A DNA stretch of 64,000 bases, from positions 148,626 to 212,625 of the forward strand of contig CAYLPJ010000003.1 of NCBI GenBank assembly GCA_964385465.1. The letters run 5' to 3'. Numbering within the stretch: the stretch's first letter is position 1; each line of letters opens with the position of its first letter. The DNA comes from an uncultured Planctomycetaceae bacterium (GTDB lineage Bacteria; Planctomycetota; Phycisphaerae; SM23-33). Shown piece after piece: positions 5,154 through 61,563 of the stretch. Made by a program: the position numbers and the translations under genes. The notes under the pieces are model-generated. The model searched no databases and was not told the origin of the DNA. It was given only the letters and a program-made list of their open reading frames with translations.

Positions 5154-5208
5154 CTCCAGGTTGTGTCCCGTTCTGTCTGCCGGGCGGCCGGGGGCCGTCC
5201 TGCTGTCT

Positions 5209-11750: not shown

Positions 11751-11779
11751 GCCGACGCGTCGATCGCAGAGGAGCCACC

Positions 11780-12670: not shown

Positions 12671-12705
12671 GCGCCGGGTGGCCCGGGCGGGGCCCGGGCA
12701 GTATC

Positions 12706-15034: not shown

Positions 15035-15053
15035 GTGTCTTCCTTTCCGCGTC

Positions 15054-17732: not shown

Positions 17733-17772
17733 GCGCGGTCCTTTGTGGCGTCGGGGTCTGTGGCGGCTGCGG

Positions 17773-19700: not shown

Positions 19701-19930
19701 GGCTGGCGCATACGATCCTTTGTACGCGAATCTCACTTCTGCCCAGGTCAGTTGGACGACAACCGAGATACGAGGGCCACCTCGATCCCCGCTGCGCCGG
19801 CTCCTCCTTGGAGGAACCCTTCCAGCCAGCGCCGATCCAGCACGTCCGGCCGATCTCCATGGCGGTACCGCCCCGTTGCGGCGCGCAGGGTTTCGGTCTC
19901 GATGTACCCGGAGGTCTTCACGGACATAGA

Positions 19931-19936
19931 AGGAGG
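19931..19936 (+). promoter_or_regulatory. Shine-Dalgarno AGGAGG for the giant gene
   Basis: AGGAGG lies 7 nt upstream of the ATG at 19944. Confidence 0.5.
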
Positions 19937-19943: not shown

Positions 19944-22900
19944 ATGGATACGTCGAGCAGCCCGTCTTCGCCCGCTTCGCCCGACGGCTCTCCCGATTCC
20001 GTAGTCCAGGTGGTCACGGTCCCGACCGGAGGCAACCTGCCGTCGATCGAGCCCCTCGAGCCGAGACTCCTGCTGTCGGTCGGGGACGTCACGCTGATGC
20101 AGCAGATGGTCGAGACGCTCGACGCGGCCGGAGAGCACGCCGACCGGCTGCGCTCGGACTTCCTCCGCGGCGCCGATCCGGTGGTCACGTCCGAGACGCT
20201 GCCCGGCACAAACGCCACGCTCGACGAGCTGACGGGGCTGTCGGACTACATGAACGTGGGGACGTACGTGCGGCACTACGTGCACCCGGTGGCTCATCCC
20301 GACGAGGACCTGCCCGGCGGCGACACGCTGCCCGTCGGCCCCGAGGAAGACCCGAGCATCGAGGGCCTGGCCGACTTTCTCGAGGCCAACTGGTTCGGCT
20401 CGCTGTTCGGCGGCGCCCTGGCCGGGACCGAGCTGGACGTCTCCTCCACCACATCCGACCCCGTCACCGACGCGACCATCAGCTTCGCCACCGACCCCGG
20501 CGGGGAGACTTTCACCGCCAGCGTGCCGATCGGCATCAGCGAGGACGTCGCGGGGATCAGCCCGGCCTTCACCGACGTACTGGCTACGTTCACCGTCGAG
20601 TTCGCCTTCTCGTTGACCGTGGACTGGGCCGACGCCGAGCCGGAGTTCTCCTACTCCGTCGACACGCTCGCCGTCGACTTCTTCGCCGTCGATGCCACGC
20701 CGGTAGTCCCCTTCCGGGTCGGGGACCTCGCCGGTTCGGCCGGGCACCCCCAGGAGATCCCGGGCCTGATTACAGCCGGCGTCTACGTGGACGCGCCGCT
20801 GGACACGGTGGCCGGGGAATTCGTTGCCGACTTCGACCCCACCGGCGACCCGGTCAGCTCGATCAGCATGGACTTGCCTGTCCACGCCGTCCTGGCCGGG
20901 CAGGACGTCACGCAAGGCGCCGACGCGCGGGTCATGCTCCAGGGGGACTACTTCGTCGACCAGGGGCGAGGCACCACGCCGGCGACGTTCACCACCCAGA
21001 ACATGGAGAATGTCTCGGACTTCTCCGACGTCACGCTCGACGGGCTCCGCCAGACGCTGGAGTCCCTCCGCGACGACTGGCTTGCCGGCGTGACCTCGAC
21101 GGACGCCTTCAACGTCGAGATCCCCTTCCTGGACTCGACGCTCGCGCAGACCGTCGACTTCGGCACGGCGTTCGACGCCGCCGTGCTGGGGGAGCTCGAC
21201 TTCGACTCGCTCGAAACGCTCCAGGACTTCGAGGCCGAGGCCAGCCGCCTCGGCCTTTTTGCTGACGGGGAATCGCTGAGCTACGATCCCGCCACGCAGA
21301 CGGTCACGCTGCCGCTGGACTTCGCCGTGGACCTCCACGAGCTGGACCTTCGCGGGCTGGACGAACTGGGGCTGACCGACGCCGAGACGCTCGTCGCCGA
21401 GGGGCTCATCCAGATCGACGACCTCGTCGACCCCGACGACCTCCTCGACGAGGGCACGCTGACGCTCAGCGAGCTGATCGACGTCGGCGTGCTGTCGTCG
21501 GCGGACGTGGCCGACTGGGAGGGCATGGACCTCGACGCCGTCGCCGCGGCGGGGCTGATCGGCCCGCGCGGTCTCGACCAGGCCGGGCTCACCGGTCCGG
21601 ACGTGGACCTCGACGAGCTGATGGTCGCCGAGCTGGTCACGCTGGCCGACCTCGTCGAGGCCGACTACGTTACGATCGGCTCGATCGCCTCGCAGCTCGG
21701 GTTCATCAAGGAGGCGAACCTGCTGGCCTCCAACCTGGCCGACTTCGGCTTCGACCTGCTGAGCTTGAGCACCACCACCGACATCGTCGAGGTCGAGGAC
21801 GTCCTCGGCAGCGGCCTGACCGACCTGGAGGAGCTCTTCGACGAGGCCCTGCTCGGTCTCGGCGACCTGGCCGTGGAATCGCTGCCCGTCGATGAGGTCA
21901 TCGCCGCCGGCGTCGCGTCCCTGCACGACCTCGTCGACCAGGGGCTGCTCGTCGCCGACGACCTGCTCGACTCCGTCGTCTTGGCCGTCACCGACATCGT
22001 CGATCAGACCACCGTCACGCTGGTGGACCTCTTCGATCACTCGCTGGTGGGCATCGAGGATTTCGCCTCCGACACCGCCGTGGACCTCGTCGATGTTCTC
22101 GACGAGGGCCTGACCACGCTCCGCAGGCTCGTGGATACCGGGCTGGTCGTCGTGGACAGCTTCCCCGACTTGGACCTCGATCCGGCCGACCTGCTGAACG
22201 AAGGGCTTGTCACGCAGTTCCAGCTCGATTTCAACGAGCTGGTCGAGTCCGGAACGGTCTCGCTCCACCGGCTGGTCAACGAAGAGATCGTCCCGCTGCT
22301 GGACCTCGTGGACGCCGGGCTCGTCGTGGCCGGAGACATCGCGGCGGCGACCGCCTCGCTGTCGGACATCCTGGCCGAGAACCTGTTCGCTGCCCGCGAC
22401 CTGCTGGTCGCCGAGCTGGTGGACGCCGCCGCCCTGGTCCGCGACACGCTGGACGTCCACGATCTCCTGGACAGCGGGGCCGCCCAGTTGGCCGAGCTCG
22501 TCAACGCCGGATTGATCGACGCGTCGGAGTTCCTCGCCGACCAGCTCGACATCCGCGAGCTGATCGGCACGCCGCTGGCGGACCTAGGCGACCTTGCGCG
22601 GGAGAACCTGCTCGAACCGGCGGACGTCGTGCTGGACGCGTGGAAGGAGTCGGAGATCGCCTCCAAGGCCTCCGACCTGCTCTCGGACATCCAGACCAAC
22701 GGGCTGGTCGGGCCCGGGGCGATCATCGACCTAGACCAGCTCGTCACCAACAGCCCCATCCAGCTTGAGCACCTGGTCTACTTCCAGTTGATCTCCCACG
22801 CCGATCTACCGGACCTCGGCACGGTGCCCCGCGGGGACCTGCTGGACGCCGGCATCATCGACGGCAGCATGCTCGAGCGCAACGGGCCCGCCGAGGTCGT

Positions 22901-25900: not shown

Positions 25901-28900
25901 GGCGATGAACGGCTTCTTCACCGACGACATCGCGCGCGGCGACCTGACCGGCTCGGGCGTGGTCACCGGGGGTGAGCTGGACGACGCCGGCCTGACGGGC
26001 GACCCGATCAATCCCCGCGACCTGCTGATCGCCGGGCTGGTTGCCGGCACCGAGCTCGCCGCCGCCGGGCTGCTGACGCTGACGGTCTCCAAGGACGACA
26101 TCACGAGCCCGGGCTTCGCCGCCGTCGCCGGGGAGGCGGTCACCGAGGCCGACCTCGTGGACGCCGACCTCCTTCGCGGGCGGGTCGATCCGGACGGTAT
26201 CGTCGCCGCCGGCCTGGCCACGCAGGGCCAGCTCGACAGCGAGGGCCTGGCCGCCGAGCCGATCATCCCCCGCGCGGACCTCGATGACCTGCCGCGCGTG
26301 GACGTCGACGCCCTGGACCTCGCCCCCGTGCCGCTGGCCAAGCTGCTGGCCGAGGGCATCGTCGACGAGAACGACCACGTGGACCTCGATGCCGTGCTCG
26401 ACACCGTGCCGACCGGCGAGAACGCCCCGCTGCTCAGCGCCGCCGACCTGGCCCGGCTGGGGCTGATCACGCCCCGCGACCTCAACGGCCACGATCCAAA
26501 CGTCCTGCTGCTCCACGATCAGCCGATCGACCTGAGCGGCGACTACGGCCTGGACCTCGTCGGCCTGGTGACCGACGCAACCGCCGACCTGCGGGCGACG
26601 GCGAGCGGGTCGTTCGACCTGGTCGCCGACGCCGACGGGCCCGCCGGCGGCGGGACGCTCACGTGGACCGTGGACGACGCCGAGCTGACCGCCGAGGTCG
26701 GTTTCGACGTCCGCGACATCGACGCGACCGGGCGGCTGGGCTTCATCGGGGTGACGCTGGCCGACGTCGCCGGCCTCGAGAGCCTGATCCACCTGGACCT
26801 GACGCAGACGGGCGTACTGGACGCCGACGGCAGCCTCGGGACGGACACGGACCGCTCGTTCGCCGCCGGCGAGGTCGCCGCCGGCGATCACGACGACAAA
26901 TGGGTCACCGACACCACCGGCACGGCGGAGGCGACGCTGCGCGGGGTCAAGGTCAACACCGGCCTCGGCGGCGTCCCGGTCGCCCACGGCGCGGAGATCG
27001 TGCTGAGCGTCGAGGACCTGACGCGCGACAAGGACCATGCCGACTACCTCTCCCTGGAGCTGCGCAACCTGCCGGGCATCTTCTCCATCCACGAGCTGTT
27101 GCGGCTGGAGGACCTGCTGACGACGCTGCTCCGCGCCCGCGACTACGTCCGCACGGCCATGGACCAGGTTCCGTTCTTCGTCACCGACCCGGAGTCGCCG
27201 GTCTACGAGTTGCTGGACAGCGTGAAGCTGCCGATTCTCGATCGCTCGCCGGTCGAGCTGCTGACGGTGATCGGGGACATCGACGAGGCGATCACCGACG
27301 TCGAGCGGTTCCTCCGCGATCCCGAGAACGACATCCAGCGGCTCGTCGGCGTGTTGATGAACGCCCTGGGCCTGGACATCGAGGCCGACAGCGACGTCTT
27401 CAGCGTGGCCATGGAGGGCAACGTGCTGAAGGCGAGCCTGAGCATCGACCAGGACGTCAGCGAGACCGTGCCCTTCGATTTCGACTTCTCGGCCCTCGCC
27501 GACGCGTTCGGCGGCAGCCTGCCGAGCGAACTGGACGGGCTGGGTGAGCTGGTCAGCCTCGACGCCGAGGGCGAACTGACGTTCACCGGCTTCGCCGAGC
27601 TGGACGTCCAGGCCGGCGTGGACCTCGGCCCTCGCGCCGAGGACCAGCCGGTGGACAAGTTCCTCTACGACTGGGACGACGGCCTCCAGGCAGGCACGCG
27701 CGTGGCCGCGGGGTTCAAGGTGCTCGGGCAGAACCTCGACCTGGGCTTCGAGGTTTTCGACTCCATCGGCCTGTCCACCTTCAACGGCGCCCAATTCGAC
27801 CTCGACGAGAGCGGGTCGCTCGACGCGACCACCTACAACGCCGACGTGACCATCGACGCCGACGCCGACGTGACCACCAACCCCGAGCTCGGCGACCCGA
27901 ACGACCGCTCGGACTACGTGGCCGTCACGTTCGAGCTGGACCAGCAGCCGGGCACCGGCGTGGACGACGACGGGCTGTATCGCTTCGACGAGACGCTGCT
28001 GGGCGATAACGTGGTCTTCGGCGGCGTCGACGGCGGGTTCGAGGTGCTCCTGCCGCTTGAGATGGACATCTTCGGCGCGACGACGCAGTTCGAGGGCCTG
28101 GGCACCTGGCCGCTGTGGATCCGCACGAACCCGGTCTACGAAAGCGGAACGAATGCGGGGCTGGAGCAGGTCTTCCGCCACGTCTTCAACACCAGCCCGG
28201 GCCCCGACGAGCCCGTGCTCATCGACGCGCCGGACATCACCGGCCAGCTCGGCAACCTGGCCGACAGCGTCATCCGCACGCTGCTGGAGGAGCTCGCCGA
28301 CCTGGTCGGGGACCTCAAGCAGGAGCTGCTCGACGCCGGCCTGCTGGACCTCGAGATCCCTGGCACGAGCACGACGGTGGACGACCTCTTCGGGGCCGGC
28401 AACGACAACGGCCTGCCCGGCGTGCCCACCGCGACGGGAGCCGAGGCGCTGCTGGATATCGACACGTACGTCTTCGAGTACCTCGATACGGTGCAGTGGA
28501 CGGGCTCCAATTCGGTGCAGGACGGCTCGGTCACGCCGGGGGACATCTGGAACGGCCTGGCGACGTTCCTGACCAACCACTGGGTCCCGACCCTGCCGGG
28601 GATCGGCGTGGGCGTCGGCGGGAACTTCATCACGGCCAACGTCTCGGGCGACCAGTTGAGCCTCGACGTCGACGGCAGCTACAGCTTCAACGAGACGGTG
28701 GACGCCGACTTCGGCGAGCACCTCGGCGGGCTGAGCCTGACGATGAATACGCTTGGGATGGACCTCGCCCTGTCGACGCTTCTGAAGTTCGGGTTCGACG
28801 TGGACCTGGGGACCAACGACGTGGAGTTCGACTTCGAGGAGTTCGGTTTCGACGCGTCGTTCGACACCACCACGCTGGACCTCGGGCTGACCTACGAGGG

Positions 28901-31900
28901 CACGGGGCTGACGACGGACGGCGAGGGCGAGGTGGACCTGGACGTCGGCGGGTCGATCCTGCACGACGGGGCGAGTTTCAGCTTCGACCCGGAGAAGAAC
29001 AGCGACGGCGTGTCCGTCCACACCAACCAGGTGGACATCGACCTGCCGCTCGAGCTGACAGGCGGCGGCGGGGTGGACGTCGCGACAGTGACCTTCGCCG
29101 ATTCGGACTTCTACGACGGCCAGTTGGACCCCGGCTTCAGCGCGGACCTGCGAGACGTGAACGTCGTGCTGACCGAGCTGGCCTACCAGGCCCTGGACCT
29201 GCTGGGCGAGGAGATCGAGACGCTCCGGGGCACGCTGATCACGCAGTACGACTCCGAAGGCAACGCGGTCACCTCCGGCAGCTTCCTCGACGAGCAACTG
29301 CCCGGGGTGGACGTCTCGCTGGACCGCATGCTGGGGATCGACTCGATCCTGTCGGTCGGCAGCTACATCCGCCACTACCTCCGGCCCCACCTGGACGAGA
29401 CGGGCTTCGAGCGCGACGAGGCGATCCCCTTCGGCCAGAACGGCGAGGACTACTACGGCGGCGGCGTGCCCACCATGGGCGGGCTGTTCGACTACCTCGA
29501 GAGCACCTGGCTGGAGGGCCTTGGCGGCCAGGCCGGCGGACTGACGTGGGAACTGGACGGCACCGATGCCATCGAGATCACCTACACCGCCAGCGCCCCG
29601 TTCAGCCGGTCCATCGGCATCGATCTCGGCGCCGGGGCCGAGGACATCGGCCTGAGCATCGACGGCGACGCGACCTTCGACATCGACTTCACCCAGGACA
29701 TCGAGGCCGTCATGCGCTTCGACTGGGGAAGCAGCACGGCGGACTTCGAGCTGGATCACTACGACTTCACGGCCGCGGCGTCGGTGGATGACCTCGTCGT
29801 CGGCGCCTCGCTGGGCCCGCTGGATGTGGGCATCGGCAAGTCGGGCGAGGAAGAGGGCGCGATGTCCGTCCGGCTGGGCGGACGGCTGTCCTTCGACAAT
29901 CCCAGCGAGCTGGCCCGGGGCGACCTGCTGTTCACCGCCGGCGACCTGGCGTTCCGGCTGTTCCACGAGGTTGGCGGCCTGCCCAACAACGCCGTCGCCG
30001 CCGACTTGCCCATCTACGCCGAGTTGGGCGGGCAGGCGCTGGGCGGCACGGCGACGTCGAGGCCGCGAGTCGGGCTGGAGGGTGCCCTGTTCCCCACGGC
30101 CGGGGCGCCGGAGCTGGCGTTCACGACCGAGAACCTCGACGAGTTGCTGAACTTCAGCGACTTCAACGTCGGCAGCCTGATCGCGATGCTCCAGGGCACG
30201 CTGAACTGGCTGGACGGGCTGACCGGCTCGGACTTCCTGAGCGCCGAGATCCCCTTCGTGGGGAAGACGCTCGGGGACGTGCTGGACTTCGCCACCACGT
30301 TCAACGACCGCGTGCTGTCGAAGATCGACCCGGCACAGATCGGCACGATACAGGACTTCATCCGCGAGTTCAGCGAGGCCGGCATCCTGCCCGAGGGCCT
30401 GGACGTAACGTTCGACCCCGCCAGCGGCGTGCTCCGCCTGCCCAGCCTGTTCGACTTCAACCTCCACGAGTTCGGCCTGCGGAACCTCCAGAACCTCGGC
30501 GAGGCGAGCTTCCAGAAGCTCGTGGACATCGGCGCGATCGATCCGACCGTCGAGATGTCCAAGCTCACGCTGGTCAACAACCTGCTGGACATGCCGCTGG
30601 TGGGCCTACGCGGGCTGGTGGAATGGGGCCTGGTGGACGGCGACTCCTTCGGCTCGACCACGCTCGCCGTGGCGGACCTCGAGGGCCTCGGCCTGGCCGA
30701 TCCCGGCGACCTCGCCGGCCCGAACATCTCGCTGACGGCGCTGCTGGCAAGTCCGGCTGTGGACCTCCGCCTCGTGGACCTGGTCGACTACGACCTGCTG
30801 TCCCTGTCGGACCTGGCGGCCGGGCAGTGGATCGACTACGACGACCTCATCGACTCCCGCCTGATCACCGCCAGCCAGCTCATCGAGCTGGGCGTGACGC
30901 TGCGCGACCGCAACGACGAGATCACCGAGGACCCGGCCCTGGCGATCGAGGTCAGCCTGGACTCGCTGACATCGCTGAATGCCTTCGATCTCGCCGGGCT
31001 GCTGGACATGGGTTTCGTGGCCGTCGACGAGTTCGATCCGACGACGGCAATTTCCGAGGCCGCCCTGGAGTCCGCCGAGCTCATCGCCGAGGACGCCCTG
31101 GACGGCACGGGGTTGGTCAGCAGCGGGGACATCACGCTGGAGGACCTGCTCAGCGTGGACTCCGGCGTCAGCGTGGCCGTGGCGGACCTGATCGCCGAGG
31201 GCCTGCTGGGTGTCGGCGACCTGGACCTGGGCAACGTGGAGATCGGCAACCTGGGCGTCGAGGGCTTCGACCTCTACGAGCTGGTGGACCTGGGCCTGCT
31301 GACCCAGACCGAGATCACCACGTTCGTCCACGACGAGTTCGGGCTGATGGACGTCCCGCTGGACCTCGGGCTGGACCTCGGCGACGTGCTGGAGCTGGGC
31401 ACCACCGCCACGGTGGACCTCAAGGCGACTGTCGAGGCCGGCTTCGACTGGCTGCTGGACCTCGACGGCCCGACCGGCGAGGAGGGCCTGACGCTGCTGA
31501 TCGACAACGCCCACGTCTCCGGCGAGGCGTGGCTGGACGTCGAGGACCTGGAGTTCTTCGCCGAGCTCGGATTCGTCGGGCTCACCGCGGGCGGGCCGGG
31601 CACGGGCAGCGGCGTGAACCTCTACGCCAAGGCCGAGGCCGCCCTCGACGAGGACGGCGACCTCGCCACAACCGACGACCGCCAGTTCTCGTTCACCGAT
31701 CTGCTGGGCGGGGCGCTGTTCGACGAGCTGGCCTTCGACTTCTCCGGCTACGGGCAGGCGGCGCTGAAGTCCATCGAACTGGCCCAGCCCATCCCCGGCA
31801 TCAGCGACTCGGCCCTGGCGGGCAAGGAGCTGTCGATCACCATCCCGGACATCACCGACTGGGAACAGGTCGACGTGCTCAATCAGGGCGAGTTGACACC

Positions 31901-49900: not shown

Positions 49901-52900
49901 CCGGGACATGATCTCCGCCGCCGACACGTCCGCCTGGCTGGGCGGGTACGACCTCAACGGCGTCAGCCACAACTCATGGTCCATGGAGTGGGTCCACGGC
50001 TCGGGGATCAGCAACGGCTCGGGCTACAGCAACTTCCACCCCTCCGAGCCGAACAACGAGGGCCCGTACAACGACGAAGACCACCTCCAGATGTGGACCA
50101 GCGGCTACTGGAACGACCTCAACGCGGTCGAGGAGCTGCGGGCCGTGCTGGAACGCGAGCCGGACTGGGGCGACCCGTTCGACGGCGACGAGACCCAGCA
50201 CGACTTCATCTACAAGATGACCACCGACTGGCGGGCTATCGAGGACGTCCGCTCGGACATCACCTACCGCGCGTTCACCGAGGCCCACGACATCATCGAC
50301 AAGCGCCCGCGGTACGAGACCATCGAGTCCGAGGTCCCCGTCATCAAGATGGAGCAGGTGACCAACTGGACCTACGAACCGGTCGTCGAGCAGGTCCTCG
50401 ATTTCGCCAGCAGCGCCGTGCCCGCCGACGGGCCGGGAAGCCTGGCGATCTTCGACCGCCAGGCCCTCTCGGCCACGGGCGACATCACCATCAACGCCGG
50501 CTCCGACGTGCTGGTCCGCTCCAGCGTGGCCGCCGGCGAGACCGACGGGGCCATCTCCGTCAACTCCAGCGGCGGGGCGGTCACGGTCGGCACGGACATG
50601 CCCGCCGAGCCGAAGCTGTACGACATGATCCACCTGACCGCCGGAGAGGCGATCGACATCGACGCCGCGGGCGGCGCGGTCGAGATCGGCGCCACGGCCG
50701 AACTGCGGACCGAAACCGACGCCCCGGCGCCGCCGAACGGCAACAGCGGCGGCGAGCCGGTGCAGGATATCTCCGTGGACGCCTCCGATGCCGTCCGCAT
50801 CGACGGACAGGTCGCCGCTCGCGACAACGTCGCCGTCACCGCCGCGGCCGACGTGACCCTCACCAGCAGCCTCCAGGCCGTCAACCTCATCGCCGCCGAG
50901 GCCGGCAACGGCGGCGGGGCCGGCACGGTCTTCGTCCACGACCCCGACGCGCCGCTCGACGGCGAGTTCGACGAGGACGACCAGAGGCCGGCGATCGGCG
51001 GCTTCCTCACCGTCACCGGCACCGACGGCGAGATCCGCCTGACGGCCGGCGCCGCAGGTGGGGACATCTCCCTCATCGACGCCGAGTTGGAGGCCGACCT
51101 GATCACGCTGTCGGCCCCGGCAGGCGAAATCCTCCAGCCCGCGGCCGTCACGCCTCCGGGCGATGGGGACACGCCGACCACCGGCGGGCAGCTCCGGGCC
51201 GTGACACTCGACGCCGACGCCGGCGCGGGCATCACGCTGGAGAACCTCCACGTCGGCGAGGTCACCGCGGTCGTCACCGGACCCGGCGACGTCGTGCTGC
51301 ACGACACGGATCTGGCCGGCGTGGCCGGGGGCGCCGATCCCGCGACGGCCGGGCTGGACCTGGTCAACGTCCGCACGGCCGACGGGTCGATCGACGTGAC
51401 GGCCCTGGGCAGCGGCCTGGTGGCCACGGACGTCCGCAGCCTCGGCGGCGGGGACGAGGACGACGTGACGCTCAACGCCGAGATCGGCGCCGGGGGCTCG
51501 ACATCGCTGACGGTGCACCACGTCGAGGCTGCCGGGGATGCAGACGTCTTCCTGAACGTGCAGGGCCAGCTGATCCAGCCGGACGGCTCGGTGAGCGCCG
51601 ACGAGGTGACGGTCCAGGCCAACGGCGCGACGGAGATCCACACGCAGGCGTCGTCGATCGACATCGACCTGGCCGCGCCGGGCAGCCTGGTGATCGTCGG
51701 CGATTCGCCGACGCTGACGCTGGCGAACGTCCGCGTGCTCAACGGCGACTTGACGGTCATCAACGCCGGCGACATCGACGCGCAGAACGTCGAGCTGGTC
51801 ACCGATTGGAACACCTCGAAGGTCCCGCCGGAGGCGAACGTCATCCGCCTGGAGACCACCGAGGGCAGCGGCGGGACGATCACCGTCGGCAGCATCGTCG
51901 GGGGCACCTACGCCGCCAGCGAGGCCGAGGCCGACGCCATCCGCCTGGACATGCTCAACTCGATCCTGCGGAAGATCGATCCCGCCGGCATCCCCGCCGA
52001 GTTCCTCACCGACGGGACGGACGGGGAGGGCGACCCGATCCAGTTCGTCGAGCTGACGCAGCCCGAGGCGGACGACCTGGCGGCCATCGTCACCGACGAC
52101 TTCGCCGCCGATGGCGAGCTCATGGCCGCCGCCACGGCCTTTACGATGTACAGCCGTGTGCTCGACGTCCTGGGCGTGGCCTACGAGGGCACGTACGAGG
52201 AGACCGACGAGCAGGCCGTCGAGGACGAGGCGCGGTCGCTGTTTACGCTCAGCCGCGGGCTCAGCTCGGCCGGGCGCGTGGAACTGTACTCCGACGGCGC
52301 CATTACCAGCCCCGTGCCGCTGGCCCCGCTGGGTGCCGGGCCGATGCCGCCGTCCAACGGCGTGGGCATCGTGGCCGACACGCTCGTCGCAGTGGCCGGG
52401 TCCGACATCACCGGCCTGACCACGGCGGTCAATCGGATGGAGGAGGTCTGCTCGATCGGCGGGTCGGCCTCGGACGTCCGCGACGTCGACGGCATCGGCG
52501 AGCTCTCGCCCGGGGTGAAGGTCGACCTGGCCGAGGCCCTGGCCGGATCGCTGGCGATCACGGCACAGAACGCGCTGATCGTCACCTCGGTACGGACGCC
52601 GGCGTCCGACGCGCAGTTGTCGCTGACCAGCGAGCTCGGCGGGCTGTTCGTCGAGCGCAACGGCGGGGGCAACGCTTTGGAGTCCGGCGGCGGGATCAAG
52701 CTGGAGACCCTTGCGGCCGACCGGGACCTGACGGTCACCGGCCACGTCCAGGCCGGCGGCAAGCTGGAGTTGGCCACGCGGGGCACCGTCAGCTCGCTGG
52801 GCCAGGGCGTGGACCTCGACGTCGGCGACCTGTCGGTGGACTCCGACAGCTCGGTCGTGCTGTCCGGCGAGTTCAATACCCTGGGCGAGGTGGACGTCGT

Positions 52901-55900
52901 CAGCGACGGGAACATCGCCCTCAGCCAACTGGATGAGGCCTTCGAGGGCTTCCGCGTTTCCAACCAGCGGTTCTCGCTCCAGCAGCGAATGCTCCAGACG
53001 CTGGGCGACAACCTCGATGCACAGATTGACGCGCTCTCGACATACCAGGCCCTGATGGCCGCCGCGGCCAGCAGGGAGGCCGGCCAGGGCGACGTGCTGA
53101 GCACGCTCGAGGCCCAGCAGCTCCAGCACCTCGTGCGGATGCCGCTGGAGCTCCAGCATCAGCAGCTTCAGACGCAGCTCGCGGACCTCGGCAGCCTGCT
53201 GGAGGTCCAGGACCAGTTGCCGGATACGCTGGGCGAGATGGAGGGCTACGATCAGATCGTTCAGCAGCGCGACCAGGTGACCGACCAGCTTCAGAGCGCT
53301 CAGAGCACCCTTGGGCAGGTCCGGACGGACCTGCTGGAGATCATCGGCGATACCGACGACCTCGTCGCCGACCTGGAGGACGTGCAGACAACGATCGCCG
53401 ACCGTCAGGCCTATCGCGACGGGCTCGGCGGCGTGCTGAGCGACATCCAGGCGGAGATCAACAGCCGCCCGGACTACACCCCGCCGGCCCTGAACGGCGG
53501 CGAGGAAGGCGCGCCCGACCTCAGCCTCGACGCGCTGAACAGCGTGGACCTCGACGAGCTCAGCGACGAGCAACTCGGGCGGCTCCACCACGACGTCCAG
53601 GGCGTCGCCGACGAGGTGGACGGCGAGCTCCAGGACCTCGGCCAGCAGGTCGAGACGCTCCAGGACCAGATCCACGCCAACCAGGGCGACCTGGCGTTCG
53701 TCCGCGAGGACCTCTCGGCCGTGCGGGACACGGTGCAGGGCCTCGGCGGTCAGCTCGACGCCCTGGACGCTCAGATCGCCGCACACCAGGCCGCCCTGGC
53801 CGAGATCGAGACGATCATCGGCCTCAGCGATCCGGCGGCCATGGACCCGGCTGTTCGCGACCTGGACGACAACGCGGACGTGCTCAGCGACACGATCAAC
53901 AGCGGCGTCGACGCGCTGCGCGACCAGCGCCTGCTCGAGACCGTCAACGCCAGCCTGGCGGACGTCAACAGCCAGATTGCCCGCGTCAATGATGCGATCG
54001 ACGCCGTGGCCCCGCTGACGGACACGACCGACTTCGGCGTGCTGGACTCGGGTATCCGCGGGCTGACGGCCTACCAGGACGTGCTCAGCGGCGCCATCCT
54101 GGACGGCATCGCCGGCCTGCCGGACCGGACGTACTCCGAGCTTCAGGCGCAGGTCGCGGACGTCATGGCGGATATCCAGCAGGTCGACCAGGCCCTCGCG
54201 GCCCTGGAAGCCATCCAGGGCGCGTCGGGCTTCGCCGTTGTCGACCGCAACGTCCGCAGCCTCGCGAGCGTCCAGGACCTGCTGACGCCGACGTACCAGC
54301 AGATCGTCTCCGACGTGACCGCGCTGCCGACGTACTCCAACCTGCTCGAAGAGATCGGCACGATGCAGCAGCAGTTGGAGCAGGAGCGGCCACTTGACGA
54401 GGTCCAGGCCGATCTCCAGCAGGTGGGCAAGCAGCTCGACACCCTCGCTGCGGAGATCGCCCCGATCGAGCTCCAGTTGATCAAGCTCGCCTATCGCTAC
54501 CTCAGCCACCAGAAGCGCGACATCCTGCCGAGGGTGATGGCGTGGCACGACGAGATCGGCAACCGCCTGGGCGGGCGCGTCGGCAGCCCCGAAGACGTGG
54601 AGCCCGATCCCGAGGCGTTCCCCATCGACTGGGACTTCTACGATCTCGGCCGGATCCACGGCTTCGATGCCCATCTCGACCAGATGGACGACGAGCAGTT
54701 CGGCAAGTTCCTCGACGGGCTGGAGCCCGCGGAGCTGGCGGCTGTCCAGGACGTGCTGGCCACCCAGGCGAGCAAGTCCGAGGGCCTGGACAAGGAGCTT
54801 CAGGACCTCGACGCCGCCGGCGGCGCCGACCCGTTGGACCCCGAGCTGCCCCAGAACCGGTTCGACCTGCTGCCGCAGTGGGAGCAGTTGGACAAGCAGC
54901 GCGACGATCTCCTGCTCCAGCAGGCCGACCTCCAGGCAGAACACGACCGTATCGTCGCATTGCAGGACCAGTTGGATGCCCTGCAAGGCCGGCGTGACGA
55001 CCTCGAGGGCGCCCTCATCAGCGCCCAGGAGTTCGCCTTCAGCGAGGCCGACAACCTCCAGGGCATCCGCGGAGGTCTCCAGGAGCAGCTCAACGGTCTG
55101 AACACCGACCGGCGGAATCACGAGGGCCAGCTCAGCGACCTCCAGGGCGACCTGTCCCCCGAGTTGAGCCGTCTCTACGCCGAACGCGAGGACCTCACCG
55201 GCCAGCGGAACACGCTGGAAGCCGAGCAGGGAACCGTCACCGGCTACATCTTCGGGGTCGTGGAGTTCCTGCCCGGCGAGCAGAGCCGCCTGAACGAGGC
55301 CCTCGGCGGCATCCAGCAGCAGCGCGAGGCGGTCAACACGCAGTACCAGGACGCCTTGGCCGAAGAGAGCACGTTGGAGCAGCAGGAGACGCAACTGGTC
55401 GCCGAGCGGGACACGCTCCAGACGCAGGTCACGCAGATCGAGGAGGATATCTCCGGCTACCAAACCACGCTGGAGGACCTGGACGACCAGGAGGCCGCGC
55501 TTCAGACCGAGCTGGACGGCATCCTCCAGACGAAGCAGACCGAGCGCGTCGGCCTGCGGGACGACCTGGTCGGGGTCCAGCAGCTCCAGGCCGACTACGC
55601 TCTCGTCGCCCAGGATTTCCAGTCGCTCCAGCACGGGCTGAACCTCGGCGCGATGGCCGGGGAGTTCCGCGGCAACGTCCTCGATGACATGCAGCGGATG
55701 AGCCGGCTCCGCGCGGATCTCGAGCAGATGCGCCAGACGCAGGAGAGGCTGGAGTACGGGCTGCGGCGGACGCAGATGGGCGGCGACGGGCTGACCAGCA
55801 TCAGCATTCGCGCCCAGGGCTTCAGCGAGCAACTGCTCTCGGCCGGCGTGGAGCTGTCCCTGGCTCAGCCCGGGGACGACTCGGAGGACCCCGGCGACAA

Positions 55901-58900
55901 GGTTGCCCAGGACGACTTCTCCGGCTGGTACCTCTACACGCATTCGGACACCGAGCAGACGCACTACCGCGACGCTCGGGGGACCGAGAACGACATCGAG
56001 GACGACGTCTTCCGCGTCCGCGAGTTCAGCCCGTTCTACGTCGACGAGCAGGCCTACTACCGGCGGCTGGACGACGTCGACGCCACGCCGGGCGAGCTCG
56101 GCGACGACGAGGAGACGTTCTACGCCTGGGACAGCGCCGTGCTGGAGACGTTCTACGTCTTCGACGGCACGTACTCGGTGCAGAAGTTCGCCGGTACGAC
56201 CAGCGAGGAGCGCACCGAGGTCCGCCCCGACACCGGCGAGGAATTCACCTTCACCATCGACAGCCCGCTCTACGACGTGCACGACTACCGTGCCCACTTC
56301 CTCGCGGACTCGCCCGATACCGAGTTTGCCGACGCCGAGCTGTTCGTCACCAGCGACGACGAGACCGGCGAGCACGTGCGGGCCTTCCAGGACATCCTCG
56401 ACGACCTGTCGGCCGAGCTGGGCGAGGAAGGCCGGCTCATCGTCCTCTACCCGGGCCAGACGCTCGATGACCTGGATGTCGGCGAGGTCACCGAGGATGA
56501 CATCCTGGTGACCTTCCTGGACTTCACGCCCATCTACCGGCAGGTCTCCAACAGCGAGATCGCCTTCGACGACCCGCAGTCCCACGGCGAGCAGGTGTTC
56601 GAAACGCTGCCTTCGCTGCTGACGGAAGTCTACCGCGGCGGCGTCGAGCTGCTGCCTGTCGAGGCCCCCGAGGCCGGCAACGTCTTCACCGGCGGGCTGC
56701 GGGCGTCCGCATCGGAGCTGATCGAGCTGCTGGCGACCGACCGGCTGACCGGGCTGGAGACCAACGCGCTGCTGTCGGCGCCGACGGTGCGGCTGGCCAG
56801 CGGCGACGTCCTGGAACTCGGCGGGCTCATCCTCGCCAGCGAGTCCGTCCAGGTCGATGCCGGCGGCGGGCTCGTGTTGTCCGAGGACGCCCGCGTCAAG
56901 GCCGGCGCCGTGAACGTCAACAGCGCCTTCGGCGACGTCGTCGGGCGCCAGGGCAGCGTCATCGAGGCCGACACGGTCGATGTCTTCGGCGCCGGGATGG
57001 TGGACATCGTCACCGACGCCCGCGCCGTGGCCGCGTCGGCCGGCCTGTCCGGCGACGTGGTCGTCACCAACATCGGCGACGATCCGGTGACCGTGGAAAC
57101 CCAGACCGACGGCGGGACGGTGGATGTGCGGTCCGATGGCACGATCCAGGCGGGCAACGTCGCCGGCGGCGACGTCTCCCTGATGGCCGGCGGCCGCGGC
57201 GACGTGCTCATCGGGCAGGTCGACGCCACCGGCAACGTCACGCTCGACGCCGCACGCGGTATCGGGTCGTACACGCCGCCGCCTCCCAACGGGCCGCTCG
57301 TGCCCCTCATGGCCGAGCCGCGGCTCAACGTCGGCGGCGACCTGAACGTCATCGCCGGGCTCGGCGCGGACCTGCCGGGCGGCACGGTCGGCGGCGAGAG
57401 CTCCGTTACCGACAACGTCAGCCTGGTGATCGACTCGCTCGACGACCTCCCGGCCACGGGGCCGGCCCACATCGCCGTTGACGGCGACGTGGTGATCGAG
57501 ATCGCGCTGACGCTCCACTACGACCTCACCATCGAGGCCGACAACATCATCTTCTCCGGCGCCGGGGCGATCCTGAATCCCGGCGGCGAGACCAGCCTCA
57601 AGGCCGACGGCGCGGTCATGCTCAACGGCATGCCCTCGCAGGACAACGACGGCGGGAAGGAGGGCACGGTCGTCCTGTCCGGCGAGAGAGTCTCCATCGA
57701 GGCGGCCGAAGTCCTCGGCGGCGGCGAGCGGCTCATCCGCGCCGACCTGCTCCGCGTCGTCACCGAGACGGACCTGGCCCTGATGACCGACGTGGACACC
57801 CTCGAGGCGATCATCACCGGCCGCGGGGACCTTCGCGTCGAGGCGGGCGGCTCGATCGAGCTGCGGGACGTGCAGGTGCACGACGGCAGCGTGATCGTTG
57901 AGGCCCCCGGGGACATCGTGGCCACCGGCGTGGTGTTCGGGACGGACCGTTACGCCAACCGCCTGAGCCTCCAGGCCGGCGGGGAGCTGACGCTGGGCAA
58001 CGTGGTCGTCGGGCGACTGATGGGCACCGAGCTCGAGACCGGGGCGGGGCTGACCAACGCCGGCGGCGTGCTGGACGTGGAGGTCACGCAGGACGACGAC
58101 AGCGTCGTCGAGGACCGGCCCGGCAGCTTCACGGCCCGGGTGACTGACCCGACGCACACCTACGAGCCGGGCGAAACGGTCGAGATGGGGATCGAGTTCG
58201 GCGACGGCTCCCAGCAGATGCTGGACGTGGACGTCGCCGGTCCCCGGGTCGAGGTCATCGGCCCGCCGAGCGAACGGTTCGGCGGCGTGCAGGACTACAG
58301 CGGCATGGGTGAGGCCGTCGTGCTGGCCGACGTCAACGCCGACGGCCTCGCCGACCTGATCCTCGGCGAGGGCCGCCACGACCTGCCCGACGCCGAGGAC
58401 ATCGGCCGAGTGCAGGTCCGCCTCGGCTCGCCCGACGGCCTCGTCGACGACCCGCTGACGCTCTGGGGCAGCGAAAGCGACGACGAGTTCGGCCAAAGCA
58501 TCGCCGGCGGCGACGTCAACGGCGACGGCGTCGACGACATCATCGTCAACGCTCCCGGCTACACGAGCCTGCGGACCACCACCACCGTCCAGCCGGACGG
58601 CACGGTGACGGTCGAGGAGTTCGAGGTCGACGGCGGGTTGTTCGTCTACTACGGCTCGGACGCCGGCCTGAGCGTGGAGCCGTCCTTCGTGCAGCTCCCG
58701 GCCATCCAGAGCATCGCCCCGGCCGGGGACGTCAATGGCGACGGCATCGACGACATCCTGGCCATGGACCCCTCGGCGGAGGTCGACCGGGTCATCGACG
58801 GAGAGCTGGAGACGCTCCCGTTCGCCGGGCGCGTGACGCTGCACCTCGGCTCGGCCGAGGGCCCGGCCGCCGAGCCGGTCTGGAGCTACGAAGGCAGCGA

Positions 58901-60869: not shown

Positions 60870-60963
60870 GCCGGCACGGATGCCCGGCCACTCCCCGCGA
60901 AGATACGGGCCTGCCGGGCTGCTACAATGAATGGTCCCCTTAGAGGAAGAGGAGGATGCAGAC

Positions 60964-61563
60964 ATGAAATCCGGTTATTGGATCCTGCCCGCGTGTGTGC
61001 TGCTCGCCGCGGCTACCGGCGCGAGGGCGGACTACTTGTTCCACGCCGACAACGTGGTCGGTGCGTTTGCCGGCACGGATTTCGACGTGACGGTGATGCT
61101 CACCTCCGATGACTCCAACGCCGCCGACAGTGTGGTCTTCACCGTGCGGTTCGACCAGCCCGGACTGCTGCTCCGCGGGTACCAGTGGCAGGACGTGTTC
61201 AGCGCGGGCTTCGATCTCAGCGAGCCCGGCGCGGCTGCGCTGAGCGGGGGGCCGGTGTCGATCCTGGCCGACACGCATGAGTCCACCACCTATGTCGGCG
61301 ACATGGATATCTACCTCGACGCCTTCTCTCCGGTAGGCTCGTTCGACAGCGGTCAGCTCGTGACACTCCAACTCAGCGTGCCGTGGGACATGGCGTACGA
61401 CGAGATCACCGCGGACATCCTGCCCGACCAGGTCTACAACGACGGGCAACCCGTCGCCGCGCTGCCCTCATCCTTCACCATCACCCCCGAGCCGGCCGCG
61501 CTCGCCGTGCTGGCCGCCGGAGCCGTCGGGCTGCTCCGTCGGCGGAGGCACCGAGCGGCGTAG
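60964..61563 (+). CDS. PEP-CTERM sorting-domain protein (putative exosortase substrate), secreted
   Basis: ATG at 60964 with a GGAGG 8 nt upstream. N-terminal signal peptide (WILPACVLLAAATGARA). C-terminus 'TITPEPAALAVLAAGAVGLLRRRRHRAA*' is PEP, then a hydrophobic span, then an Arg cluster. Confidence 0.7.
   Translation: MKSGYWILPACVLLAAATGARADYLFHADNVVGAFAGTDFDVTVMLTSDDSNAADSVVFTVRFDQPGLLLRGYQWQDVFSAGFDLSEPGAAALSGGPVSILADTHESTTYVGDMDIYLDAFSPVGSFDSGQLVTLQLSVPWDMAYDEITADILPDQVYNDGQPVAALPSSFTITPEPAALAVLAAGAVGLLRRRRHRAA

What the first reader, a model, noticed from the sequence alone, without database searches (positions are those of the whole stretch)
19944..60869. Single ~41-kb gene encoding a ~13,600-aa multidomain surface protein
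A stop-free reading frame of 40,926 nt with a consensus RBS/ATG is among the largest bacterial genes. Its architecture suggests a cell-surface fibre or adhesin that binds carbohydrate at its head and is tethered through a dockerin-like tail. In order it has: an N-terminal Planctomycete motif, an acidic solenoid-like repeat region, beta-helix stalks, RTX beta-roll, ~12 LLGL modules, a globular lectin head, a ~950-aa coiled coil, an FG-GAP propeller, an Ig-like domain and a dockerin-like domain. The neighbours are housekeeping genes (PDH) and a PEP-CTERM gene, so it appears to be a stand-alone giant-gene locus rather than part of a classical operon. The combination of a canonical C-type lectin domain, an integrin-type propeller, a ~1-kb coiled coil and dockerin in one polypeptide is not an architecture I recognise as described.
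Basis: partly seen in the sequence, partly recalled or inferred. Interest (0 to 1): 0.85.

Follow-up and report, generated by a model that had tools for sequence, protein, structure and literature searches.

The report
Conserved 13,641-residue bacterial surface-fibre gene
This is a real, intact 41-kb gene for a 1.4-MDa acidic protein, probably an exported calcium-binding fibre carrying a sugar-binding lectin domain; it belongs to a conserved but uncharacterised family of giant bacterial proteins, so it is a new example of a known phenomenon, not a new kind of thing.

Summary
The frame is open from 19752 to 60869. The ATG at 19944 follows GAAGGAGG, giving 13,641 aa. Third-position GC is 0.90-0.96 in every 3-kb tile, and there are no near-identical repeats that could hide an assembly collapse.

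Most domain calls were confirmed:
- Clear: LEPR-XLL N-terminal motif (a catalogued NCBIfam domain, not Planctomycete-specific), RTX, 12 "LLGL" modules, a C-type lectin domain with EPN/WND but no cysteines, a seven-blade FG-GAP propeller, and an SMC-like helical region.
- Marginal: dockerin and Big_5.

About 90% of the protein matches no Pfam family.

The new result is that this is one member of a conserved, collinear family. Eleven GTDB genomes (mostly Planctomycetota, chiefly Phycisphaerae), several metagenome fragments and a 38%-GC metagenome contig carry orthologues. Together they cover residues 1-4490 and 5566-12854 at 33-54% identity, with a core at 60-76%.

Function (calcium-stiffened surface fibre/adhesin) and export route are inferred, not shown. 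Giant genes in Planctomycetota, LEPR-XLL giants and dockerin/RTX-bearing huge proteins are already described, so "among the largest bacterial genes" is overstated.

The parts
19929..19936 (+). Shine-Dalgarno-like GAAGGAGG, 7 nt before the ATG
   Evidence: Read directly from the sequence.
19944..60869 (+). Giant CDS: 13,641 aa, 1.44 MDa, pI ~4.05, net charge about -1,930, 3 Cys
20043..20078 (+). LEPR-XLL N-terminal motif (IEPLEPRLLLS, aa 34-45). No hydrophobic signal peptide.
   Evidence: NCBIfam NF012209 scores 17.0 bits at a cut-off of 17 on the first 100 aa and 15.8 on 150 aa. The orthologue L014 scores 20.8 bits. No TM or signal-like stretch was found.
20235..21383 (+). Module B (aa ~98-480), unknown family. 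First copy of an internal duplication.
   Evidence: Aligns with aa 3130-3520 at 33% identity. No Pfam, PDB or protein-database hit.
21381..26513 (+). Acidic Leu/Asp/Gly short repeats (…DLVDxGLh…, minimal spacing ~11 aa), aa ~480-2190. Fold untested.
   Evidence: Conserved at 42% identity in the 38%-GC orthologue L014.
26445..29243 (+). Module D (aa ~2168-3100), unknown family. First copy.
   Evidence: aa 2168-2370 match aa 3779-3980 at 33% identity, E 1e-21. No Pfam hit.
29331..34043 (+). Second copy of the super-module: B' (aa 3130-3520), a short acidic repeat stretch (3520-3790) and D' (3779-4700)
35421..35843 (+). RTX beta-roll, about 7-8 GGxGxD nonapeptides (aa ~5160-5300)
   Evidence: Pfam HemolysinCabind 32.4 bits. 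NCBIfam RTX_toxin 56.5 bits. PDB AlgE R-modules, serralysins and CyaA. Motif positions.
36621..39143 (+). Most conserved region of the family (aa ~5560-6400). Beta-rich, no known family.
   Evidence: 60-76% identity to the orthologues. No Pfam or PDB profile hit.
39126..39737 (+). LLGL modules 1-2 (aa 6395-6598)
39741..40343 (+). Second highly conserved beta-rich segment (aa 6600-6800)
   Evidence: Mean identity 0.64-0.67.
40341..44153 (+). LLGL modules 3-12 (aa 6800-8070), ~110-150 aa each, each ending in …N(A)DLLGL
   Evidence: No Pfam hit. The only PDB hint is Urm1 at E 0.009.
44181..45893 (+). Beta-rich segment (aa 8080-8650). Beta-helix is inferred, not verified.
   Evidence: Composition. 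46-53% identity to the orthologues. hhalign against the modelled helix gives only P 0.002, probability 15%.
45891..46643 (+). DxxGxLID heptad-like repeats (aa 8650-8900)
   Evidence: Pfam DUF3659 34.9 bits. 21-nt tandem period.
46731..47393 (+). Right-handed beta-helix (aa 8930-9150)
47391..49763 (+). Stalk-head junction (aa 9150-9270; …VDVVTGFRRVEDGF…PTITTEQTGF…VKVGSEFG…QDGYW) and the head core (to aa 9940)
   Evidence: The junction is 57-79% identical in 11 genomes. The same unit occurs once in each of 55 further large protein fragments. AF2 confidence is low here. No PDB profile hit.
49770..50183 (+). C-type lectin domain without disulfides (aa 9943-10080; WLGG, EPNN, DEDH, WND)
50391..52943 (+). 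Beta-rich segment (aa 10150-11000). Beta-helix inferred.
52941..55823 (+). Gln/Leu-rich helical, coiled-coil-like region (aa 11000-11960), interrupted by Pro/Gly stretches
   Evidence: NCBIfam ASRP E 2.6e-14, SMC E 1.7e-9, Rad50 E 1.4e-8. 3.5-residue hydrophobic periodicity. Least conserved region, 23-31% identity.
55821..56693 (+). Aromatic/acidic globular region (aa 11960-12250), unknown family
   Evidence: 27-41% identity in 7 orthologues.
56691..58103 (+). Beta-rich segment (aa 12250-12720). Beta-helix inferred.
58251..59588 (+). Seven-bladed FG-GAP propeller. Every blade has a DxNGDGxxD calcium loop (aa 12770-13215).
   Evidence: Pfam FG-GAP 137 bits, 7 stretches. Integrin alpha-5 E 5e-19. 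Motif positions.
59601..60098 (+). PKD-like / Big_5-like Ig region (aa 13220-13385). Marginal.
   Evidence: Big_5 22.4 bits against a cut-off of 23.6. PKD_4 17.7 bits.
60114..60260 (+). Dockerin-like domain (aa 13391-13439). Borderline.
   Evidence: Dockerin_1 23.2 bits against a cut-off of 22.9. The second loop is degenerate by inspection.
60261..60866 (+). Ala/Arg/Pro-rich C-terminal tail (aa 13440-13641), much less acidic than the rest
   Evidence: No family hit. Conservation unknown.
60931..61563 (+). Downstream gene for a 210-aa protein: signal peptide, unknown ~150-aa domain, PEP-CTERM anchor. Possibly co-transcribed.
   Evidence: TIGR02595 19.7 bits against a cut-off of 16. No terminator-like site in the 62-nt gap. 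No cohesin or other hit.

Best explanation
Shown:
- This is an intact protein-coding gene for a 13,641-aa, 1.44-MDa protein that is extremely acidic and nearly cysteine-free.
- It is a member of a conserved, collinear family of giant proteins. These start with the LEPR-XLL motif and occur mostly in Planctomycetota, chiefly Phycisphaerae.
- It contains three calcium-binding or calcium-dependent module types: an RTX beta-roll, seven FG-GAP blades each with a calcium loop, and a C-type lectin domain with an EPN/WND site.
- It also contains at least one FHA/EtpA-like right-handed beta-helix, twelve tandem ~110-aa LLGL modules, and an SMC-like helical region.

Inferred:
- The protein is exported, although it has no Sec signal, so the route is not yet identified.
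- It folds with calcium outside the cell into a fibre a few hundred nanometres long.
- On that fibre, rigid beta-helical and tandem-module segments hold out a globular head. The head's mannose-type lectin site, together with the integrin-like propeller near the C-terminus, would bind glycans on particles, algae or other cells.
- The strongly conserved core (aa ~5560-6800) and the stalk-head junction are probably structural or partner-binding elements.
- Which end is attached to the producing cell is not known.
For: Gene reality.

Family and collinearity:
- 11 GTDB loci have the frame open over the whole fetched 8-20 kb and are collinear with aa 5786-12560.
- Fragment P0006 is collinear with aa 9596-12854, into the propeller.
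- The frameshifted long-read contig L001 is collinear with aa 7029-12742. Its last gene fragment carries FG-GAP and cadherin hits.
- The 38%-GC contig L014 carries an ORF that starts with …LEQLEPRILLS and is collinear with aa 356-4490 at 38-42% identity.

Extracellular, calcium-dependent character:
- D+E is 14-27% against K+R 2-8% along the whole chain, with 3 Cys.
- The same bias is seen in all orthologues.
- RTX. FG-GAP calcium loops.

Lectin.
Beta-helix.
Helical region.

Context: sulfatase genes lie in the window. The literature describes giant surface proteins of Planctomycetota and notes that Dockerin_1 and HemolysinCabind in huge proteins come mostly from this phylum.
Against: - Nothing here shows export, surface location, calcium binding or sugar binding.
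- There is no signal peptide, TM helix, TPS domain, autotransporter barrel or adjacent secretion genes.
- About 90% of the chain has no recognised family, so unseen enzymatic or effector modules are possible.
- The very high conservation of aa 5560-6800 is unusual for a passive adhesin stalk.
- The head could not be modelled with confidence.
- The dockerin call is borderline, and no partner was found.
Confidence: 0.6

Rival explanations
1. It is a type I secretion (RTX) adhesin of the LapA/MpIBP type. It would be threaded C-terminus first through an ABC/MFP/TolC channel, fold outside with calcium, and be retained by its N-terminus plugging the outer-membrane pore.
For: The protein is acidic and almost Cys-free, has RTX repeats, and is a long modular extender with ligand-binding domains. 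Vibrio LEPR-XLL giants carry C-terminal RTX and serralysin-like domains. The description of LapA/MpIBP-type adhesins is from my own knowledge.
Against: The RTX block lies at aa ~5160-5300 of 13,641, not near the C-terminus. The C-terminus is a dockerin-like domain plus an Ala/Arg/Pro tail. There is no ABC exporter or TolC in the window. The HlyD-family gene sits beside an AcrB-type RND pump.
Confidence: 0.15
2. It is a cell-to-cell delivered or contact-dependent giant effector. It would resemble the LEPR-XLL giants Cag_663/Cag_665 of the Chlorochromatium epibiont, or a CdiA-type filament with a mid-chain receptor-binding domain, and so would not be a static adhesin.
For: It shares the LEPR-XLL N-terminus. 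Its beta-helix is closest to TpsA exoproteins. A binding head is embedded between stalk segments. The internal core is strongly conserved.
Against: No toxin, Rhs, pretoxin or TPS domain was detected. The chain ends in propeller, Ig-like and dockerin-like modules. No sequence similarity to those proteins beyond the motif was tested or seen.
Confidence: 0.1
3. It is a structural matrix element: a holdfast, sheath, aggregate scaffold or surface-fibre component. On this view the lectin and propeller cross-link the cell's own exopolysaccharide and do not bind foreign surfaces.
For: Same evidence as for the fibre model. In addition, a PEP-CTERM protein gene lies directly downstream with no terminator. 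PEP-CTERM/exosortase systems accompany exopolysaccharide production (my own knowledge). An epimerase gene lies in the window.
Against: There is no conserved synteny. The upstream genes of L014 are unrelated to those here. No EPS locus is adjacent.
Confidence: 0.13
4. It is an artefact: a chimeric or collapsed assembly, or a long open frame in GC-rich non-coding or pseudogenised DNA.
For: A GC content of 70% produces long spurious ORFs, as seen on the antisense strand. Residues 4490-5566 lack orthologue coverage.
Against: GC3 is 0.90-0.96 throughout in one frame. The chance probability is about 1e-119. There are no near-identical repeats. Collinear orthologues with open frames exist in independent assemblies.
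Confidence: 0.02

Closest known systems
LEPR-XLL giant proteins (NCBIfam NF012209), e.g. Cag_663/Cag_665 of Chlorobium chlorochromatii and ~8,000-aa Vibrio proteins
   Same: They share the N-terminal LEPRxLL motif with no classical signal peptide, giant size, long parallel beta-helices, calcium-binding modules and an unknown export route.
   Different: No similarity beyond the motif was established. Those proteins carry other modules: MtxA-like C-termini, HK97-like folds, and C-terminal RTX/serralysin. Here there are LLGL modules, a CTLD head, a coiled coil, a propeller and a dockerin-like end.
Giant genes / huge extracellular proteins of Planctomycetota (Reva & Tümmler 2008; Kohn et al. 2016; 'neglected giants' 2024)
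   Same: Same phylum-level phenomenon: genes over 20-30 kb and predicted surface proteins. Dockerin_1 and HemolysinCabind domains in huge proteins come mainly from this phylum.
   Different: Those papers count and classify such genes. I found no description of this particular collinear family or its head and junction modules. At 40.9 kb it exceeds the 36,239-bp maximum of the 2016 survey. It is far below the later Omnitrophota records.
Two-partner-secretion exoproteins (FHA, HMW1, EtpA, HxuA) and autotransporter passengers
   Different: There is no Sec signal, no TPS domain, no TpsB gene nearby and no C-terminal barrel. Sequence identity is 11-17%.
RTX adhesins of type I secretion systems (LapA, MpIBP, SiiE)
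   Same: They are acidic, Cys-poor, calcium-dependent modular fibres with ligand-binding domains held on long extenders (own knowledge).
   Different: The RTX block is internal here. There is no recognisable C-terminal T1SS region and no T1SS genes in the window.
Animal collectins and other C-type lectins (collectin-11, tetranectin, SP-D)
   Same: They share the CTLD fold and the EPN…E…WND calcium/sugar site.
   Different: All canonical disulfide cysteines are absent. There is an extra ~10-residue insertion (…GTSHNxW…). The domain is embedded in a 13,641-aa bacterial chain.
Omnitrophota 'dockerin-type' giant proteins (West-Roberts et al. 2023 preprint)
   Same: They are giant, calcium-binding, predicted attachment proteins with dockerin/EF-hand-like elements and large unannotated beta-helical regions.
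   Different: Those have many dockerin and thrombospondin repeats, C-terminal TM anchors and a conserved T2SS-like locus upstream. None of that is seen here.

Membership tests
LEPR-XLL domain-containing giant proteins (NCBIfam NF012209) | N-terminal ~24-aa LEPRxLL motif reaching the model's cut-off (17 bits) | tested here: met
   Borderline. It scores 17.0 bits on the first 100 aa but 15.8 bits on the first 150 aa. The orthologue L014 scores 20.8 bits.
LEPR-XLL domain-containing giant proteins (NCBIfam NF012209) | Very large protein, thousands of residues | tested here: met
   13,641 aa.
C-type lectin domain (Pfam PF00059) | Profile match above the gathering score | tested here: met
   24.2 bits against 22.6 on a 200-aa segment. 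Only 18 bits within the 4,641-aa tile. Proteins with Lectin_C scores of 53-175 bits hit aa 9943-10075 at E 1e-5 to 1e-16.
C-type lectin domain (Pfam PF00059) | Calcium site 2 / sugar-binding residues (EPN or QPD, E, WND) | tested here: met
   EPN(N/D), (D/E)ED and WND are present in the giant and in all 9 aligned orthologues.
C-type lectin domain (Pfam PF00059) | Conserved disulfide-forming cysteines | tested here: not met
   There are no Cys in aa 9935-10090. The orthologues also lack them, while the reference CTLDs have them.
C-type lectin domain (Pfam PF00059) | CTLD fold | tested here: inconclusive
Integrin-type FG-GAP beta-propeller | Seven FG-GAP repeats with DxDxDG-type calcium loops | tested here: met
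   7 stretches, 137 bits. Seven DxNGDGxxD motifs are spaced 58-72 aa apart. Integrin alpha E 5e-19.
RTX / type I secretion adhesins | GGxGxD nonapeptide beta-roll | tested here: met
RTX / type I secretion adhesins | RTX block next to a C-terminal secretion signal | tested here: not met
   The RTX block is at aa 5160-5300. The last 250 aa are a dockerin-like domain plus an Ala/Arg/Pro tail.
RTX / type I secretion adhesins | Cognate ABC transporter, MFP and TolC genes nearby | tested here: not met
   The 64-kb window holds only an RND pump with its MFP. The rest of the genome was not available.
Two-partner secretion exoproteins (TpsA) | Right-handed beta-helix | tested here: met
Two-partner secretion exoproteins (TpsA) | N-terminal Sec signal plus TPS domain | tested here: not met
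   No Pfam or NCBIfam hit in the first 5,000 aa. No hydrophobic N-terminal stretch.
Autotransporters | C-terminal beta-barrel translocator | tested here: not met
   No such hit in the C-terminal tile.
Dockerin type I (Pfam PF00404) | Profile match above the gathering score | tested here: met
   Borderline. 23.2 bits against 22.9 on a 441-aa segment, and 18.0 bits in the long tile.
Dockerin type I (Pfam PF00404) | A cohesin partner | tested here: not met
   The adjacent PEP-CTERM protein gives no cohesin hit in Pfam at E up to 10, or in PDB sequences. Only this neighbour could be tested.
Coiled coil (SMC/Rad50-like arms) | Long heptad-patterned helices | tested here: inconclusive
   SMC, ASRP and Rad50 arm profiles hit at E 1e-14 to 1e-7. 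A 3.5-residue periodicity appears in aa 11046-11290 and 11585-11930. P+G is 6-18% and there are breaks. No structure was modelled.
NRPS/PKS megasynthases | Condensation, adenylation, KS, AT or carrier domains | tested here: not met
   None found in Pfam or NCBIfam.

The most novel reading that the evidence does not exclude
The gene represents an old, widely spread and so far undescribed family of LEPR-XLL fibres of more than 13,000 aa. Three features would make it new:
1. A disulfide-free, EPN-type bacterial C-type lectin mounted on a beta-helical stalk.
2. An unannotated stalk-head junction/head-core module that recurs in dozens of other giant proteins.
3. A 60-76% conserved internal core that docks to a dedicated, still unknown export or anchoring machinery recognising LEPR-XLL proteins.
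Probability: 0.3. Interest if true: 0.7.

Novelty: new member of a known kind. Interest (0 to 1): 0.45.

Why it matters
Giant genes of Planctomycetota are often counted but rarely dissected. This one gives a clean, intact reference for a family that stays collinear from 38%-GC to 70%-GC organisms.

It offers concrete handles for experiments:
- a small lectin domain with an intact EPN/WND site that can be expressed and tested on glycan arrays;
- a sharply conserved core and junction that point to partner-binding sites;
- the LEPR-XLL motif, whose export route is unknown even for the largest bacterial proteins.

If the fibre mediates attachment to polysaccharide particles or algae, it bears on how these bacteria colonise surfaces. 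On present evidence it extends a known phenomenon and does not overturn anything.

Tried and rejected
- Exact-sequence look-ups of two neighbouring proteins found nothing, so the source genome could not be identified.
- The word-based search with the N-terminal 500 aa gave no hit. Searches with aa 9150-10150 and 5800-6400 gave only 4 and 3 fragments. The largest hit returned in any protein search was 4,077 aa, so full-length orthologues could not be retrieved there.
The C-termini and downstream genes of the orthologues therefore stay unknown.
- AF2 of the whole head (aa 9096-10150, 17 sequences) gave pLDDT 44 and is not usable apart from the CTLD hint.
- PDB profile searches gave nothing for the conserved core and the junction, and only a weak Urm1 hit (E 0.009) for the LLGL modules.
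- Pfam found nothing on the low-GC N-terminal orthologue.
- hhalign of the modelled helix against the other presumed stalk segments gave only weak scores: P 0.001-0.014, probability at most 17%.
- The idea that the PEP-CTERM neighbour is a cohesin partner found no support.
- tblastn against plasmid records found nothing.
- NRPS/PKS, autotransporter and TpsA membership are rejected on missing defining domains.
Full report

Yes. The window holds one frame open from 19752 to 60869 on the plus strand. The first ATG with a ribosome-binding site is at 19944, with GAAGGAGG at 19929-19936.

GC at the third codon position is 0.90-0.96 in each 3-kb tile, with position 2 near 0.42. The signal stays in this frame to the end. 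With the window's base composition a stop is expected every ~50 codons. A stop-free run of 13,705 codons has a chance probability of about 1e-119.

The very long ORFs on the opposite strand (up to 4,055 aa) are mirror images of this frame. Their first codon position has GC 0.95.

There are no long near-identical DNA repeats or large tandem arrays. The internal protein repeats are only 31-35% identical. Repeat collapse is therefore not a concern.

The product is 1.44 MDa with pI ~4.05 and a net charge of about -1,930. It has only 3 cysteines and no transmembrane-like or signal-peptide-like stretch.

**2. Anatomy, module by module (protein coordinates)**

- **aa 34-45:** IEPLEPRLLLS is the LEPR-XLL motif of NCBIfam NF012209. 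It scores 17.0 bits at a cut-off of 17 on the first 100 aa, and 15.8 bits on the first 150 aa.
- **aa ~98-4700:** two copies of a super-module. The first is module B (~98-480), acidic short repeats (~480-2190) and module D (~2168-3100). The second is B' (3130-3520), a shorter repeat stretch, and D' (3779-4700). None of this matches Pfam, NCBIfam or PDB sequences.
- **aa ~5160-5300:** an RTX beta-roll of 7-8 nonapeptides.
- **aa ~5560-6400 and 6600-6800:** beta-rich, with no known family.
- **aa 6395-6598 and 6800-8070:** twelve ~110-150-aa modules, each ending in …DLLGL. Pfam finds nothing. The only PDB hint is a weak Urm1 match, E 0.009.
- **aa 8650-8900:** DxxGxLID repeats that match DUF3659 at 34.9 bits.
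- **aa 9150-9940:** a junction and head core (see section 4).
- **aa 9943-10080:** a C-type lectin domain, supported by several lines.
  - Pfam gives 24.2 bits against a cut-off of 22.6 on a short segment.
  - Proteins that are themselves clear CTLDs (53-175 bits) hit it at E 1e-5 to 1e-16.
  - SP-D is hit in the PDB at E 1e-3.
  - WLGG, EPN, the acidic loop and WND are kept in all orthologues, while every canonical cysteine is missing.
- **aa 11000-11960:** Gln/Leu-rich. It shows a 3.5-residue hydrophobic period in two long stretches and hits SMC, ASRP and Rad50 arm profiles at E 1e-14 to 1e-7. It is broken by Pro/Gly-rich spots.
- **aa 12770-13215:** a seven-bladed FG-GAP propeller with a calcium loop in every blade.
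- **C-terminal end:** Big_5 (22.4 bits, below the cut-off) and Dockerin_1 (23.2 against 22.9) are borderline. The last ~200 aa are an Ala/Arg/Pro-rich tail without matches.

The other "stalk" segments (aa 8080-8650, 10150-11000, 12250-12720) are beta-rich. Their similarity to the modelled helix is weak: hhalign P 0.002-0.014, probability at most 15%. They remain inferred. By my estimate roughly 8% of the chain is covered by Pfam families.

**3. It is one member of a conserved giant-gene family**

A degenerate-pattern scan of one genome per GTDB species, using the conserved junction, returned 11 loci. In every one the matching frame is open across the whole fetched stretch, up to 20.4 kb or 6,800 codons. 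Each is collinear with aa ~5800-12560 of this protein at 33-54% identity.

The records are mostly Planctomycetota. They include Mucisphaera sp. (Phycisphaerae), Anaerohalosphaeraceae, Phycisphaerae SM23_30 and MAG49, 'Planctomycetaceae' and Pirellulales. A few are labelled Desulfobacterales, Eisenbacteria, Burkholderiales or Acidimicrobiales. I cannot tell whether those labels reflect real spread or mis-binning.

Further evidence of collinearity:
- A long-read metagenome contig (L001) is collinear over aa 7029-12742 but frameshifted. Its last gene fragment carries FG-GAP and cadherin-type hits.
- Fragment P0006 runs collinearly from aa 9596 into the propeller at 12854.
- A metagenome scan was seeded with the alignment of the two internal copies of module B. 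It found a 38%-GC contig (L014). Its ORF starts MSLSRSLLRFRRRNRMTPPRQNRVHLEQLEPRILLS after an AGGAGG site and scores 20.8 bits on LEPR-8K. It stays open for 3,835 codons to the end of the locus and is collinear with aa 356-4490 at 38-42% identity.

So both the unannotated N-terminal third and the annotated C-terminal two thirds are under selection in distant genomes. Upstream genes differ between L014 and this window, so there is no conserved synteny on that side.

Acidity and the near absence of cysteine are family traits. Identity is not uniform:
- aa 5800-6400 and 6600-6800: 0.61-0.76
- the junction: ~0.64
- aa 9600-9800 and 10100-10200: ~0.6
- the helical region: only 0.23-0.31

**4. A wider module**

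An exhaustive HMMER search of 1.84 billion cluster representatives with aa 8901-10100 gave 224 hits. None is longer than 4,077 aa, so only fragments of giants are visible there.

Besides orthologous head fragments and true C-type lectins, 55 large protein fragments share one copy each of the same ~330-aa unit (aa 8927-9257). The unit is a beta-helix followed by …VVTGxRQV…PTxVTEQVG…VKVGSxFxTMDVTLTQDGYYN. The similarity then continues through FREYFVEGVDY…, LGYKxLYDF…, DKYIRMPxGAQxDVLRVVSQG… and …RWxVxY…DGR.

The giant's head is this core with large insertions plus the lectin domain. One relative carries a Laminin_G_3 domain after the unit instead. None of these proteins has a Pfam annotation for the unit, and a profile finds nothing in the PDB. 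AlphaFold predicts long beta-hairpins for the junction but with low confidence.

**5. How it most likely works**

*Shown:* the module inventory, the calcium-type motifs, the lectin site, one beta-helix, and the family conservation.

*Inferred:*
- The protein is exported and folds with calcium into an extended fibre.
- Using ~0.48 nm per ~21-residue helical turn for ~3,400 beta-rich residues, 0.15 nm per residue for the helices, and ~3.5 nm per LLGL module, the C-terminal 8,000 aa alone would span on the order of 200-250 nm. This is a rough estimate from general structural knowledge.
- The fibre would present a mannose-type C-type lectin and an integrin-like propeller for binding glycans on particles, algae or cells.
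- Sulfatase genes in the window fit a polysaccharide-oriented lifestyle. They are not linked evidence.

*Export route:* unknown. There is no Sec signal, TPS domain, barrel or TM helix. The window holds no T1SS or T2SS genes; the HlyD-family gene belongs to an RND pump. [quoted passage not shown]

*Anchoring:* also unknown. The dockerin call is borderline. The PEP-CTERM protein encoded 62 nt downstream, with no terminator-like site between, shows no cohesin signal.

**6. Comparison with what is known**

- *The class is known.* Giant genes were described in Planctomycetes, with 36,239 bp the largest in a 2016 survey of 29 genomes. Proteins of 10,000 aa or more are called frequent in Planctomycetota, and 7,478 proteins of at least 10,624 aa were retrieved from BV-BRC. 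Dockerin_1 and HemolysinCabind domains in huge proteins come mostly from Planctomycetota.
- *The N-terminal motif is catalogued* as NF012209. It is reported for ~8,000-aa Vibrio proteins and for the 20,647- and 36,806-aa Chlorobium proteins.
- *The beta-helix works like* those of FHA-type adhesins, but the TpsA, autotransporter and T1SS-adhesin membership tests fail on defining features (see the membership table).
- *Not found described:* in four full-text searches I found no description of this collinear family, its disulfide-free EPN lectin, its LLGL modules or the junction/head-core unit. That is absence in a limited library, not proof.

**7. Verdict**

The thing is a new member of a known kind: giant LEPR-XLL extracellular proteins of the PVC group.

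It has some features worth follow-up. These are the family-wide collinearity across very different GC contents, a strikingly conserved internal core, a recurrent unannotated junction/head module, and a testable lectin site.

Interest is 0.45. A specialist would not be very surprised by a 41-kb surface-protein gene in this phylum. The family does offer a tractable entry to the open question of how LEPR-XLL giants are exported and what they bind.

**8. Limits**

- No reads, expression or localisation data were available.
- Residues 4490-5566 and everything beyond 12854 have no orthologue coverage.
- The source organism was not identified. Its closest relative in the scan, a 69%-GC 'Planctomycetaceae' MAG contig, is 54% identical over 2,676 aa.
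- Both structure-prediction jobs are used. Most of the chain is still structurally untested.

Noticed in passing
window 60931-61563 (+): A 210-aa protein with a signal peptide, an unknown ~150-aa domain and a PEP-CTERM anchor is encoded 62 nt after the giant gene's stop. No terminator-like site lies between them. It could be co-transcribed, but it shows no cohesin or other family signal.
   Followed up: partly
window 22806-58844 (-): Four antisense ORFs of 2,221-4,055 aa lie inside the giant gene. They have GC 0.95 at codon position 1 and are shadows of the sense frame, not genes.
   Followed up: yes
window 36621-40343 (aa ~5560-6800): This beta-rich region with no known family is 60-76% identical across orthologues whose overall identity is 33-54%. 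That is far more conserved than the lectin, the modules or the coiled coil. The reason is unknown.
   Followed up: partly
window 46722-47714 (aa 8927-9257) and proteins P0022-P0147: A ~330-aa unit (beta-helix plus the junction motif …VVTGxRQV…PTxVTEQVG…VKVGSxF…QDGYYN, followed by FREYFVEGVDY… and LGYKxLYDF…) occurs once in each of 55 other large protein fragments that have no Pfam annotation for it. One relative has a Laminin_G_3 domain after it.
   Followed up: partly
L014 4355-15859 (metagenome contig Ga0123519_10000277): An orthologue of the N-terminal 4,500 aa sits in a 38%-GC organism, against 70% GC here. It has a clearer LEPR-XLL N-terminus, and upstream of it lie a LuxR-type regulator gene on the opposite strand and an unrelated gene set.
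   Followed up: partly
L004, L009, L011, L012, P0001: Orthologous fragments sit in MAGs labelled Burkholderiales, Acidimicrobiales, Desulfobacterales (a 497-kb contig), Eisenbacteria and 'Halobacteria archaeon'. This means either horizontal spread of the family or mis-binned contigs.
   Followed up: no
window 13646-19320 (-): The pyruvate dehydrogenase genes lie in the order E3 (lpd), E1, E2 on the minus strand. The longest ORFs overlap by 26-56 nt. A lipoate-protein ligase gene (12421-13473, +) is adjacent.
   Followed up: no
window 489-4618: Two sulfatase genes lie here. The ORF 489-3236 (+) has the sulfatase domain only from residue 475, after an N-terminal stretch with no family hit and a weaker coding signal (GC3 0.78). 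The true start may be further downstream.
   Followed up: no
L001 and L002 (ENA long-read contigs); P0003, P0004: Homologous giant genes in long-read metagenome assemblies are broken into several called genes by frameshifts. The deposited 'proteins' contain Arg-rich out-of-frame stretches. No protein search returned a hit longer than 4,077 aa, so families like this are under-represented there.
   Followed up: partly
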